Part shown: one piece after another, positions 61,540 through 61,879 of the stretch
Layout of the letters: every line of letters starts with the position of its first letter
How positions within the stretch are numbered: position 1 is the first letter of the stretch
Origin: a virus
Lineage: Duplodnaviria > Heunggongvirae > Uroviricota > Caudoviricetes
Virus record (IMG/VR): IMGVR_UViG_3300045988_156524
Strand: one strand, 5' to 3'
DNA: 64,000 bases
Notes under the pieces: generated by a model
Database searches by the model: none
What the model was told of the DNA's origin: nothing
What the model saw: the letters and a program-made list of their open reading frames with translations, nothing else
Made by a program: the position numbers and the translations under genes

Positions 61540-61599
61540 AAGAGCATTCTTGGTGGACCTGTAGATTGGGATATGAACCCGTTACAGGAGAATGCTCTT
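61540..61599. repeat. Hairpin element A: 11-bp outer stem, 6-bp inner stem, loop with motif TAGATTGGGATATGAACCCGTTAC
   Basis: AAGAGCATTCT ... AGAATGCTCTT inverted repeat; loop motif shared with element B. Confidence 0.6.
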
Positions 61600-61797
61600 A
61601 CCTGTTACGTGCTCCGTTTCGTGGAGCTAACGGCGGGTGATCGGGCCGCACCAGACTGGACTTATTTCAGCGTTATGCTCATGCCAGAGAATCAAACTGT
61701 GATGGTCGGTGCTGAACTCCGACACAGGGTTGTAGCAAGCCCCGCAAAGCGCGCACTACTGTAGTTGCGGCACATCAGCCTGTGCATTCACCACAAT

Positions 61798-61879
61798 GTT
61801 GAGAACACTGGTTGTCACGCTGCAACGCAACATTTATTCATAGATTGGGATATGACCCCGTTACGCCAGTGTTCTCAAC
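61798..61879. repeat. Hairpin element B: 14-bp outer stem, loop with motif TAGATTGGGATATGACCCCGTTAC
   Basis: GTTGAGAACACTGG ... CCAGTGTTCTCAAC inverted repeat. Confidence 0.6.

What the first reader, a model, noticed from the sequence alone, without database searches (positions are those of the whole stretch)
61540..61879. Two hairpin elements with a shared 24-nt loop motif next to the tRNA cluster
Elements at 61540-61599 and 61798-61879 have different long outer stems but almost the same internal sequence, TAGATTGGGATATGA(A/C)CCCGTTAC. The reverse complement contains a T-arm-like GGGTTCATATCCC. They could be a structured small RNA family, tRNA-derived pseudo-elements or protein-binding sites.
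Basis: seen in the sequence. Interest (0 to 1): 0.5.

Follow-up and report, generated by a model that had tools for sequence, protein, structure and literature searches.

The report
Conserved RNA hairpins beside P1 tRNAs
The two hairpins are real members of an undescribed family of conserved RNA hairpins that separate tRNA and small-RNA genes in P1-like and some Yersinia temperate phages, in a stretch of phage P1 that is currently annotated, probably wrongly, as two protein genes.

Summary
The 24-nt motif occurs twice (61562-61585 and 61841-61864, 23/24 identical), with none expected by chance. Each copy tops a long hairpin that folds far better than shuffled sequence (z -5.4 and -6.0).

The window is a P1-like phage-plasmid. 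The hairpins lie on the minus strand, the same strand as the tRNA genes, inside the C1-repressed ban operon leader. P1 annotates the opposite-strand ORFs upl and plp there.

A third version of the element, with different stems but the same core, lies in the late-operon leader of Yersinia prophages and phage PY54. Across the three versions 16 of 24 stem pairs change on both sides while 95% of cells stay paired. G·U pairs outnumber A·C 53 to 18 on the sense strand. This points to a transcribed RNA structure, not a tRNA and not a coding region.

The two hairpins belong to a wider set, with two more in this window. The set shares a roughly 20-bp lower stem and its flanks but carries different tops, several of them T-arm-like. 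The hairpins follow tRNA 3' ends and flank STnc100-like small-RNA modules.

Best reading: processing or insulating hairpins, probably RNase III substrates, that display a tRNA-arm-like loop. Function is inferred, not shown.

The parts
61531..61609 (-). Hairpin C. Flank stem (6 bp), then a 14-bp lower stem GGUAAGAGCAUUCU/AGAAUGCUCUUUCC with one U-U mismatch, a 6-bp inner stem CCUGUA/UACAGG, the apical core, and a 3'-side bulge UCCACCA.
   Evidence: Inverted repeat I2. Fold -35.0 kcal/mol, z -5.98. Covariance model R1 scores 54.8 bits, E 1.9e-11.
61562..61585 (-). Core motif copy 1. As RNA: GUAACGGGUUCAUAUCCCAAUCUA, i.e. a 3-bp GGG/CCC stem with 7-nt loop UUCAUAU, flanked by unpaired AC and AAUC.
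   Evidence: exact match, 0 expected by chance. Identical in 67 of 69 C-type copies in the fetched loci.
61789..61888 (-). Hairpin B. Flank stem 8 bp, a 1x1 mismatch, a 14-bp lower stem GUUGAGAACACUGG/CCAGUGUUCUCAAC, a 4-bp inner stem, the apical core, and a second internal hairpin, forming a three-way junction.
   Evidence: Inverted repeat I1. Fold -47.4 kcal/mol, z -5.44. R1 scores 31.9 bits, E 1.4e-5.
61841..61864 (-). Core motif copy 2. As RNA: GUAACGGGGUCAUAUCCCAAUCUA.
61813..61832 (-). Second internal hairpin (P3) of hairpin B, UGUUGCGUUGCAGCGUGACA. The same position in the Yersinia-type elements holds a hairpin with different stem sequences and a UGCA-containing loop.
   Evidence: Fold. 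Variants U->C turn a U-G wobble into C-G. In L147 the stem CAUUG/CAAUG is replaced by CCGCU/AGUGG.
62025..62111 (-). Hairpin A, a sibling element directly after tRNA-Thr. It has the same flanks (CACAACA...GUUGUG) and a lower stem GGUAAGGGUA.../...UACCCUUACC. Its top has a different sequence and contains the canonical T-arm-like GGGUUCGAAUCCC (62048-62060).
   Evidence: Inverted repeat I6. Fold -40.2 kcal/mol, z -5.0. Alternates with a different 'E' hairpin at the same place in P7, Ro157 and RCS47.
62566..62641 (-). Hairpin H, a sibling element upstream of tRNA-Asn, with lower stem GGUAAGGGCGCUGG/UCAGCGUCCUUACC and internal CUGGUUCGAUUAACCAG.
   Evidence: -39.2 kcal/mol on the sense strand against -33.3 on the antisense strand.
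61523..61546 (-). Conserved 3' flank of hairpin C (GUUGCGGUGAAUGC). Copies also follow hairpin B (61784-61807) and hairpin A (62017-62040). The flank starts the next module.
   Evidence: Direct-repeat family D2. The same flank appears in the lambdoid/Yersinia loci.
61888..61905 (-). Small hairpin GCCGGAACCGUAACCGGC that ends the module before hairpin B. The same hairpin precedes the Yersinia-type elements.
61414..61534 (-). STnc100-like small-RNA module that follows hairpin C and ends the noncoding array (closing stem UGCGGUG/CACCGCA, then a U-run).
   Evidence: Rfam RF02076, 38.3 bits, below the gathering score of 47, E 1.5e-6 in the local search. Fold z -3.0.
62113..62359 (-). tRNA-Thr, tRNA-Tyr and tRNA-Asn cluster, transcribed in the same direction directly upstream of hairpin A.
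   Evidence: ARAGORN and Rfam.

Best explanation
The two elements are structured RNA domains, transcribed from the minus strand as part of the long untranslated leader of the C1-repressed ban operon of a P1-like phage.

Anatomy. Each is a long hairpin with three parts:
- a lower helix of about 20-25 bp, whose sequence and flanks (CACAAC | GKURAG...CUYWMC | GUUGYG) are shared by a wider set of hairpins;
- an inner stem;
- an invariant apical core (UA-AC-GGG-KUCAUAU-CCC-AAUC-UA) that forms a tRNA-arm-like mini-hairpin.

Placement. The hairpins separate an array of self-closed RNA units: tRNAs first, then STnc100-like small-RNA modules.

Inferred mechanism. The long lower helix is a double-stranded-RNA processing and insulating site, most likely cut by host RNase III. 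Cutting would separate the tRNAs from the downstream small-RNA modules and define their ends. It would also release or expose the apical domain, whose conserved loop is a recognition surface for a host tRNA-binding factor or an RNA partner.

Shown: the sequence conservation, the helices, the strand bias, the placement, and the lack of tRNA or coding signal.
Inferred: transcription, RNase III cleavage, and any ligand of the core.
For: Context.
- The window is 99% identical to P1 relatives.
- The region lies between trnT and the first gene after the noncoding array (tciA in P1; the 78-aa ORF 61144-61380 in this window), downstream of the C1-controlled P1ban promoter and on the tRNA strand.

Structure.
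- Fold z-scores are -5.0 to -6.0.
- A third version of the element has the same core but different stems. It occurs in Yersinia alsatica, Yersinia phage PY54 and unassigned IMG/VR prophage contigs, between the Q/pR' terminators and the lysis genes.
- On 30 distinct sequences of the three versions, 95.2% of cells pair, against 74.5% in shuffles (0 of 500 reach the observed value). Sixteen of 24 stem pairs change on both sides. The slid controls pair at 35-46%.

Strand.
- G-U wobble pairs 53 against A-C mismatches 18.
- The sense strand is more stable in 34 of 39 variants, by 5.3 kcal/mol on average.

Core conservation.
- The stems have diverged while the core stays 23/24 identical or better. 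The core is intact in nearly all copies.

Wider family.
- The same lower stem and flanks enclose many different tops.
- The hairpins start 4-8 nt after a tRNA CCA end, or directly after a terminator or the small CCGG hairpin.
- The lower helix is about two helical turns long. By established knowledge of the enzyme, that is the usual size of an E. coli RNase III substrate.

Not coding.
- Variable sites in the upl/plp frames fall 2/5/5 and 21/18/20 by codon position.
- There is no Pfam match.
- The Yersinia-type copies carry a stop codon just upstream in the frame that P1 reads.
- P7, D6 and most plasmid records annotate no gene here.
Against: - No expression or cleavage data could be examined.
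- RNase III has no strict sequence signature, so the cleavage claim rests on helix length only.
- The effective number of independent lineages is small: three versions plus close variants (the model's effective sequence number is 2.28).
- The pair counts were made on an alignment from which I removed the 3'-side insert by hand.
- Natural variants tolerate loss of parts. SJ46-type phages fuse the 5' half of B to the 3' half of C and so destroy both lower stems. Ro157-type phages have lost exactly the 13-nt mini-hairpin of C.
- CRISPRi knock-down of plp, upl and trnT had no effect on P1 plaque formation (PMC10695390), so any role is accessory.
- A processing role does not explain why the core sequence is invariant.
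Confidence: 0.45

Rival explanations
1. The hairpins are evolutionary debris of repeated duplication of a 'tRNA plus spacer' unit. Their conserved parts matter mainly at the DNA level, as short homologies that let phages swap, gain and lose tRNA and small-RNA modules. They have no RNA function of their own.
For: - The region is mosaic. BLAST breakpoints among 636 plasmids fall at or next to the hairpins (query positions 72/76, 179, 251/254 and 290).
- Hairpins A and E alternate at one position, and RCS47 carries an extra 'module plus hairpin' unit.
- The SJ46 deletion joins the two 24-nt cores exactly.
- Modules end with CCGUAACCGGCAC, which resembles the tRNA-Thr 3' end CCGUUAACCGGCAC.
- Several tops contain T-arm-like fragments.
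Against: - Neutral debris would not keep helices through 16 double changes. It would not favour G-U over A-C on one strand.
- It would not hold a 24-nt core invariant between P1-like and Yersinia phages whose stems have diverged.
- Orientation relative to the tRNAs is always the same.
Confidence: 0.2
2. The apical mini-hairpin mimics a tRNA arm, either the T-arm or the initiator-tRNA anticodon arm. The released hairpin then acts in trans as a decoy or sponge for a host tRNA-binding protein. Candidates are an anticodon nuclease of a defence or toxin system, MetRS, or TruB/TrmA.
For: - The core reads ACGGG-KUCAUAU-CCCAA.
- It has three G-C pairs next to a 7-nt loop with U33, CAU and A37. That matches 13 of 17 positions of the E. 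coli tRNA-fMet anticodon arm UCGGGCUCAUAACCCGA. I recalled that sequence from memory and did not check it here.
- It is also 2 changes from the T-arm-like GGGUUCGAAUCCC of hairpin A.
- Sibling hairpins display canonical UUCGAAU/UUCGACU loops.
- The elements sit among phage tRNA genes and are expressed on induction.
Against: - There is no experimental link.
- The stem is only 3 bp. Positions 32 and 38, and the 27-43 and 28-42 pairs, differ from the initiator arm.
- A58 of the T-loop is U.
- Ro157-type phages have deleted the mini-hairpin.
- P1 plaque formation does not need the region.
Confidence: 0.12
3. The hairpins are Nus-factor (boxA/nut-like) antitermination signals that protect the 1.6-kb untranslated leader from Rho.
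For: - The 3' arm of hairpin C contains UGCUCUUU. I recalled the rrn boxA as UGCUCUUUAACAA.
- E/F-type arms contain GCUCUUAC, identical to lambda nutR boxA CGCUCUUAC (sequence read).
- About 12 nt downstream lies a 5-bp hairpin GCRCA-GRCUGA-UGYGC.
Against: - The boxA-like stretch is fully base-paired in a hairpin of -35 to -47 kcal/mol.
- It is not kept in hairpin B (UGUUCUCAAC) or in the Yersinia type (GUGCUCAGCC). There, compensatory changes preserve pairing rather than the boxA sequence.
Confidence: 0.05
4. The region encodes the proteins Upl and Plp on the plus strand, as in the P1 reference annotation. The repeat is then a repeated peptide (IDWDM-N/T-PL).
For: ORFs 61435-61764 and 61765-62142 are open in this window and are annotated in P1 and RCS47.
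Against: - There is no third-position excess among 71 variable sites.
- There is no Pfam match.
- The plp ORF overlaps tRNA-Thr antisense.
- Indels of 13, 196 and 279 nt occur among close relatives.
- The Yersinia-type copies have a stop codon directly upstream of the motif in that frame.
- P7, D6 and most plasmid records do not annotate the ORFs.
Confidence: 0.03
5. The hairpins are folded single-strand recombination sites of the integron attC type, which mobilise RNA-gene cassettes by site-specific recombination.
For: - They are imperfect inverted repeats with AAC...GTT at the base, a conserved mismatch and a variable top.
- They separate same-orientation modules that come and go among relatives.
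Against: - Natural breakpoints lie in the 5' arm (P7 against RCS47), in the core (SJ46) and in the 3' flank (RCS47 against P1). They occur wherever there is homology, not at one G|TT site.
- The degenerate positions of RYYYAAC/GTTRRRY are not met.
- No integron integrase is associated.
Confidence: 0.03

Closest known systems
Phage T4 species 1 and species 2 stable RNAs (rnaD/rnaC) in the T4 tRNA gene cluster (from my own knowledge, not checked here)
   Same: Small structured non-tRNA RNAs of unknown function, encoded inside a phage tRNA cluster and co-transcribed with the tRNAs. Species 1 RNA is an RNase III substrate in vitro.
   Different: No sequence relation. T4 is a virulent phage. The elements here are long hairpins with a shared lower stem, found in temperate P1-like, N15-like and lambdoid phages.
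RNase III processing stems (T7 early R sites; stems flanking 16S/23S rRNA in rrn operons)
   Same: Helices of about two turns with an internal mismatch, placed between functional RNAs in a polycistronic precursor. Spacer tRNAs sit nearby in rrn operons.
   Different: Cleavage is not shown here. The hairpins carry a sequence-invariant apical module that RNase III would not need.
STnc100 / PasD prophage small RNAs (Rfam RF02076; bioRxiv 10.64898/2026.05.13.724894)
   Same: Same genomic neighbourhoods: the late-operon leader of Stx and other lambdoid phages, and the P1 ban leader. The module after hairpin C aligns to the STnc100 core (model positions 31-147), and all modules start with GGUGAAU followed by a hairpin.
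   Different: The hairpins themselves are not part of the STnc100 model. The bona fide STnc100 of phage 933W (207.7 bits) has no such hairpin upstream. The P1 module scores below the gathering threshold.
tRNA T-arm, or initiator-tRNA anticodon arm
   Same: A 7-nt loop closed by G-C pairs. UUC at loop positions 1-3 is T-like. U33-CAU-A37 next to three G-C pairs is like the initiator anticodon arm.
   Different: The stem is 3 bp. U stands at the invariant A58 position. There is no cloverleaf and no detection by tRNA models.
P1/P7 C4 antisense RNA (Rfam C4), a P1 structured RNA matured by RNase P (from my own knowledge)
   Same: A P1-encoded structured RNA that depends on host tRNA-processing machinery.
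   Different: Different locus (c4-icd-ant), and no similarity. No Rfam C4 match in this region.

Membership tests
tRNA / tRNA pseudogene (Rfam RF00005, ARAGORN) | Cloverleaf with acceptor, D, anticodon and T arms, detectable by tRNA models. | tested here: not met
   ARAGORN at default, 90% and 80% thresholds reports only Thr, Tyr and Asn. At 70% it gives 12 calls on both strands, which is noise. The Rfam tRNA model gives no match on the hairpins at E<=10.
tRNA T-arm (T-loop motif) | 5-bp stem, 7-nt loop U54-U55-C56-R57-A58-N-N, with the U54-A58 reverse-Hoogsteen pair. | tested here: not met
   The sequence shows a 3-bp stem, loop UUCAUAU (hairpin C) or GUCAUAU (hairpin B), and U at position 58. 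Hairpin A (GGGUUCGAAUCCC) meets the loop rule but has a stem of only 3-4 bp.
Initiator-tRNA anticodon-arm mimic | Three consecutive G-C pairs next to the loop, plus U33, anticodon CAU and purine 37. | tested here: inconclusive
   All four features are present in the core. The reference sequence was recalled from memory.
Any curated RNA family (Rfam 15) | Match at or above the family's gathering score. | tested here: not met
   No family matches over either hairpin at gathering score. At E<=10 there are only weak miRNA-precursor hits typical of any long hairpin. None is found on the Yersinia-type loci.
STnc100 (RF02076) | Score of at least 47 bits over the 206-position model. | tested here: not met
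   The neighbouring module 61414-61534 scores 38.3 bits over model positions 31-147 only. The hairpins lie outside the match.
E. coli RNase III substrate | About 20 bp or more of largely uninterrupted double-stranded RNA. | tested here: met
   Hairpin B has 8+14 bp with one 1x1 mismatch. Hairpin C has 6+2+11 bp, continuing into 6 bp. The helix is supported by covariation.
E. coli RNase III substrate | Cleavage by the enzyme in vivo or in vitro. | not testable with these tools
   No expression or end-mapping data are available.
Integron attC site | R''/R' core sites RYYYAAC/GTTRRRY, with cassette junctions at a single G|TT position. | tested here: not met
   AAC and GTT are present, but the degenerate positions fail (for example GTTGTGA). 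Natural junctions map to the 5' arm, the core and the 3' flank.
boxA (Nus-factor binding site) | Single-stranded GCUCUUUA-type sequence, conserved among members. | tested here: not met
   UGCUCUUU is present in the 3' arm of C but is base-paired. It is absent from B and from the Yersinia type.
Protein-coding gene (P1 upl / plp) | Excess of third-position substitutions, frame-preserving indels, and homologues or domains. | tested here: not met
   Variable sites by codon position are 2/5/5 and 21/18/20. There are no Pfam domains. Indels of 13 and 196 nt occur among relatives.

The most novel reading that the evidence does not exclude
The ban-operon leader of P1-like phages, and the late-operon leader of some Yersinia prophages, is a cassette-like array of tRNA- and tmRNA-derived RNA mimics. 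The hairpins would be processed out of it. Their invariant loop, which resembles an initiator-anticodon arm or a T-arm, would titrate a host tRNA-recognising enzyme or a tRNA-cleaving defence or toxin nuclease during induction. That would make them an RNA-based counter-defence that works alongside the phage tRNAs.
Probability: 0.1. Interest if true: 0.85.

Novelty: new member of a known kind. Interest (0 to 1): 0.55.

Why it matters
P1 is a reference phage and a workhorse of bacterial genetics. P1-like phage-plasmids are common carriers of resistance genes in Enterobacteriaceae.

If this reading is right, two P1 'genes' (upl, plp) are annotation artefacts that lie over a conserved noncoding RNA array. 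It would also define a previously undescribed hairpin family, absent from Rfam, that is shared by P1-like, N15-like and lambdoid phages.

The family offers testable handles on three questions:
- how phages mature tRNA and small-RNA clusters;
- how such clusters are reshuffled;
- whether tRNA-arm mimics take part in phage-host conflict.

Tried and rejected
**tRNA detection.** Relaxed ARAGORN thresholds and a permissive Rfam search did not call the hairpins as tRNAs.

**Other curated families.** Rfam gave nothing for the hairpins on the window or on five Yersinia-type loci.

**Motif scan of one genome per species.** Forty-nine of 51 loci were unrelated coding or chance matches. Only Yersinia alsatica and one Escherichia sp. 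were real.

**BLAST of the Yersinia-type element.**
- No match in E. coli complete genomes or in plasmids.
- Among phage records it matched only Yersinia phages: PY54 over the hairpin, and vB_YenS-P840 over 53 nt of the downstream module.

**MAFFT alignment of whole elements (A1).** It put the stems of the three versions out of register, so I replaced it with an alignment lacking the 3'-side insert (A2).

**Covariance model R1 over the whole window.**
- It found only the two known copies.
- Hairpins A and H scored at noise level (about 13 bits, on both strands), so their kinship rests on the shared lower stem and flanks, not on the model.

**Ideas considered and set aside.** The attC-like, boxA-like and coding readings are discussed under the rival explanations.

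**Tag-like block.** I searched around it for a tmRNA tRNA-like domain and found none that is convincing.

**Literature.**
- Searches for the sequences or for a description of this region found nothing relevant.
- The P1 genome paper was not available.
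Full report
**Where we are**

The window is a P1-like phage-plasmid. The 741 bases around the finding are 99% identical to several P1 relatives and 98.6% identical to the P1 reference.

In the P1 record this stretch lies between trnT and tciA. It is inside the operon that runs from the C1-repressed promoter P1ban through a 'dicF-like region', trnA, trnT, tciABC and trnI to ban. All of these are on the strand that is the minus strand of the window. The C1 operator sequence ATTGCTCTAATAAATTT is present at about 63040.

P1 annotates two opposite-strand ORFs here, upl and plp. P7 and D6 annotate none.

The window carries tRNA-Asn, tRNA-Tyr and tRNA-Thr at 62113-62359 and a CAU-anticodon tRNA at 60233-60308, all on the minus strand.

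**The observation**

The 24-nt motif occurs exactly twice, at 61562-61585 and 61841-61864 (23/24 identical). There is no further copy with up to three mismatches, and none is expected by chance.

Each copy lies inside an inverted repeat with different arm sequences. As minus-strand RNA the hairpins fold at -35.0 kcal/mol (61531-61609, 'C') and -47.4 kcal/mol (61789-61888, 'B'). The z-scores are -5.98 and -5.44.

- A third long hairpin sits directly after tRNA-Thr (62025-62111, 'A', z -5.0). Its top contains the canonical T-arm-like GGGUUCGAAUCCC.
- A fourth lies upstream of tRNA-Asn (62566-62641, 'H').
- Hairpins A, B and C are each followed by GUUGYGRUGAAKGC.

**Relatives**

The B and C elements are present in P1, RCS47 and many P1-like plasmids; 636 plasmid records match the region. 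P7 and D6 have only B.

A scan of viral contigs for the core found more than 120 loci. Among them is a third version ('D') with the same core but different stems (ACAUUCG-C-CUGAGCAUCA-CUGAAUA ... UAUUCAG ... UGGUGCUCAG-C-CGAAUGU).

D-type copies sit in the late-operon leader. In Yersinia alsatica the order is Q gene, pR', terminator, hairpin, terminator, holin. In Yersinia phage PY54 the hairpin lies between a DNA methyltransferase gene and the holin gene.

With one genome per species, the exact core was otherwise found only in an Escherichia sp.. No D-type copy was found in E. coli complete genomes or in plasmids.

**Anatomy**

In all three versions the 5' strand is continuous through three segments:
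- a flank stem;
- a lower stem of 10-14 bp;
- an inner stem of 4-7 bp ending in U-A, A-U.

Then comes the core: AC, a GGG stem, the loop KUCAUAU, CCC, and AAUC.

The 3' strand is interrupted between the inner and lower stems. The interruption is a second hairpin in B and D (its loops contain UGCA) and a 7-nt bulge UCCACCA in C.

**Is the structure selected?**

I removed the 3'-side insert so that the three versions align without register shifts (alignment A2, 30 distinct sequences). On that alignment:
- 95.2% of cells form standard pairs, against 74.5% in shuffles (0 of 500 reach the observed value);
- 16 of 24 stem pairs have changes on both sides;
- sliding the partner by 1-3 columns drops pairing to 35-46%.

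In the second hairpin, the Y. alsatica copy replaces CAUUG/CAAUG with CCGCU/AGUGG.

G·U pairs outnumber A·C mismatches 53 to 18 on the motif-sense strand. That strand folds better than its complement in 34 of 39 variants, by 5.3 kcal/mol on average. Both results point to an RNA made from the tRNA strand.

Caveats: there are effectively only three lineages plus close variants (effective sequence number 2.28), and the alignment was hand-spliced.

**Not a tRNA, not coding**

ARAGORN, even at 80% of its thresholds, and the Rfam tRNA model at E<=10 report nothing on the hairpins. No Rfam family matches them.

In the upl and plp frames, variable sites among 15 sequences (the window plus 14 distinct full-length relatives) fall 2/5/5 and 21/18/20 by codon position, so there is no third-position excess. 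There is no Pfam match. Relatives differ by indels of 13, 196 and 279 nt. In D-type copies the frame used by P1 has a stop codon directly upstream of the motif.

**A wider family**

Comparison of P1, RCS47, Ro157c2YLVW, D6, P7, SJ46 and CMS-2020a shows more hairpins with the same flanks and lower stem: CACAAC(A) GGUAAGRGCAYU ... RRUGCUCUUWCC GUUGUG, or GUUGAG.../...CUCAAC. Their tops are unrelated.

A scan for the 3' arm plus flank brought in many more. Their tops are 40-140 nt long, and several contain canonical T-loop hairpins such as GAGUUCGACUC, GUCUGUUCGAUUCAGAC and CCGGUUCAAUUCC.

These hairpins begin 4-8 nt after a tRNA CCA end, or after a terminator, or after the small hairpin GCCGGAACCGUAACCGGC. 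They are followed by modules that start with GGUGAAU plus a 5-bp hairpin and end with CCGG-loop-CCGG-CACYACAAC. This is the closing-stem layout of the prophage small RNA STnc100.

The last module in the window (61414-61534) aligns to the STnc100 core at 38.3 bits, below the gathering score. The true STnc100 of phage 933W has no hairpin upstream.

The array is therefore tRNAs, hairpin, module, hairpin, module, hairpin, module. Each unit is closed by its own stem.

**Natural variants**

- SJ46-type genomes have lost the 279 nt between the two cores, leaving a B-5'/C-3' hybrid without a lower stem.
- Ro157-type genomes have lost exactly the 13-nt mini-hairpin of C.
- Hairpin A and another hairpin (E) alternate after tRNA-Thr. 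RCS47 has both, with an extra module between them.

Breakpoints lie in the 5' arm, the core or the 3' flank. That pattern fits homologous exchange at short repeats and does not fit a single-site recombinase.

CRISPRi of plp, upl and trnT did not affect P1 plaque formation (PMC10695390).

**Mechanism**

What is shown: a conserved, strand-specific RNA fold, an invariant core, and a fixed placement between self-closed RNA units in operons that are switched on at induction.

What I infer:
- The lower helix of about two turns is a double-stranded-RNA processing and insulating site. RNase III is the obvious host enzyme for a helix of that length (established knowledge of the enzyme, not a test).
- Cleavage would separate the tRNAs from the modules and set the module ends. 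The flank stem is formed by the 3' end of one unit and the 5' end of the next, and it can include the tRNA's CCA.
- The apical core is too conserved to be a mere cap. It is 2 changes from the T-arm-like loop of hairpin A. Equally, it has the three G-C pairs, U33, CAU and A37 of an initiator-tRNA anticodon arm. That comparison uses a sequence I recalled from memory and remains a lead. A host tRNA-binding factor or an RNA partner is the likely ligand.

I put about 0.45 on this composite reading. I put about 0.9 on the narrower statement that these are transcribed structured RNA elements rather than tRNAs or coding sequence.

**Rivals**

The rivals are:
- neutral tRNA-derived debris that serves as recombination linkers;
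- trans-acting decoys;
- boxA-like antitermination signals;
- the annotated ORFs;
- attC-like sites.

They are weighed in the Rival explanations section. The first is partly compatible with the best explanation.

**Novelty**

I found no description in Rfam or in the searchable literature. The P1 genome paper could not be read.

The closest precedents are the T4 species 1 and 2 RNAs in the T4 tRNA cluster and RNase III processing stems in general. I file this as a new family of a known kind: structured noncoding RNA in a phage tRNA or small-RNA cluster.

**A side finding in the same leader**

At 62764-62732 (minus strand), a block conserved in P1, P7, D6 and non-P1 contigs ends in GCA AAC GAU GAU CUG AUG AUG GUA GCG GCC UAA. 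This reads ANDDLMMVAA*, which looks like a tmRNA tag template (E. coli: ANDENYALAA).
- Rfam's permuted-tmRNA model aligns it weakly (24.1 bits against a gathering score of 47).
- ARAGORN reports the resume consensus and the tag only at 80% thresholds.
- Relatives keep exactly ten codons, 'AND(D/N)', a hydrophobic middle and 'AA-stop' through different codons: ANDDVVLMAA, ANDDLMLMAA, ANDDVVLIAA, ANDDAVLMAA, ANDDLMMAAA and ANDNLMMVAA.
- Similarity between the P1-type and the other type stops at the stop codon.
- I could not find a convincing alanine-accepting tRNA-like domain. In the non-P1 contigs a promoter-like TTGACA/TAGATT pair sits about 60 nt upstream of the tag.

This deserves its own follow-up.

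Noticed in passing
window 62732-62825 (minus strand); also L001, L002, L003, L208, L247, L264, L270, L308, L320: A tmRNA-tag-like block lies in the same leader. It has a conserved upstream sequence of about 60 nt (AGUUUUCGU...GCGACUUUGCGG...AGAAACUGACCA..AAAG.UAAAU) followed by GCA AAC GAU GAU CUG AUG AUG GUA GCG GCC UAA = ANDDLMMVAA*. There is no start codon. Relatives keep 10 codons, AND(D/N), a hydrophobic middle and AA-stop with different codons (VVLM, LMLM, VVLI, AVLM, LMMA). Similarity ends at the stop codon. Rfam's permuted-tmRNA model gives 24.1 bits (gathering score 47). ARAGORN finds it only at 80% thresholds, and no convincing tRNA-like domain was found. No literature hit.
   Followed up: partly
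window 62489-62503 (minus strand): The mini-hairpin ACGGGUAUAUCCCGU, between hairpin H and tRNA-Asn, resembles the 24-nt core (ACGGGUUCAUAUCCC) with two loop bases missing.
   Followed up: no
window 62193-62279 (minus strand): A tRNA-Tyr(GUA) lies between tRNA-Thr and tRNA-Asn. The P1 reference, P7 and D6 lack it, while phage vB_EcoM-Ro157c2YLVW has it. The Rfam score is only 35.1 bits because of the long variable arm.
   Followed up: partly
window 60336-61380 (minus strand): P1 has tciA-tciB-tciC here. This window instead has a 78-aa hydrophobic ORF and a 275-aa SPFH/Band-7 lipoprotein-like ORF (Pfam PF01145, E 1e-30), as in RCS47 and Ro157c2YLVW. The swap begins right after the STnc100-like module.
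   Followed up: partly
L004 (SJ46), L019, L051; L008 (Ro157c2YLVW): Natural deletions occur. In one, 279 nt between the two cores are lost, leaving a B-5'/C-3' hybrid hairpin. In the other, the 13-nt GGGUUCAUAUCCC mini-hairpin is lost precisely from hairpin C.
   Followed up: yes
L002 (D6) 2638-2724, L003 (P7), L005 (CMS-2020a): An 87-nt tRNA-Ser(UGA)-like gene occupies a module slot between two hairpins of the family. ARAGORN calls it in D6, and the same sequence is seen in P7 and CMS-2020a. The D6 record notes that tRNAscan-SE did not assign an amino acid.
   Followed up: partly
window 61888-61912 compared with 62113-62130 (minus strand): The 3' end of the module before hairpin B (CCGUAACCGGCAC-UACAAC) resembles the 3' end of tRNA-Thr plus its spacer (CCGUUAACCGGCACCAACACAAC). 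This hints that the modules descend from tRNA genes.
   Followed up: no
3' arms of hairpin C (61537-61550) and of E/F-type hairpins in L003, L007, L002: These arms contain boxA-like strings: UGCUCUUU, which matches the rrn boxA as I recalled it, and GCUCUUAC, which is identical to lambda nutR boxA (read). They lie inside base-paired arms.
   Followed up: partly
window 62816-62917 (minus strand): This is the counterpart of P1's annotated 'dicF-like region'. It ends in a terminator-like hairpin with a U-run at 62833-62855. Rfam's DicF model does not match it.
   Followed up: partly
window 23239-23308 (minus strand): RNA-OUT of IS10/Tn10 matches at 97.3 bits, so an IS10 copy is inserted in this P1-like genome.
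   Followed up: no
window 28848-28907: The hairpin model picked up the palindrome ATAACTTCGTATAAT...CTATACGAAGTTAT, which is the loxP site of the P1 Cre/lox system.
   Followed up: no
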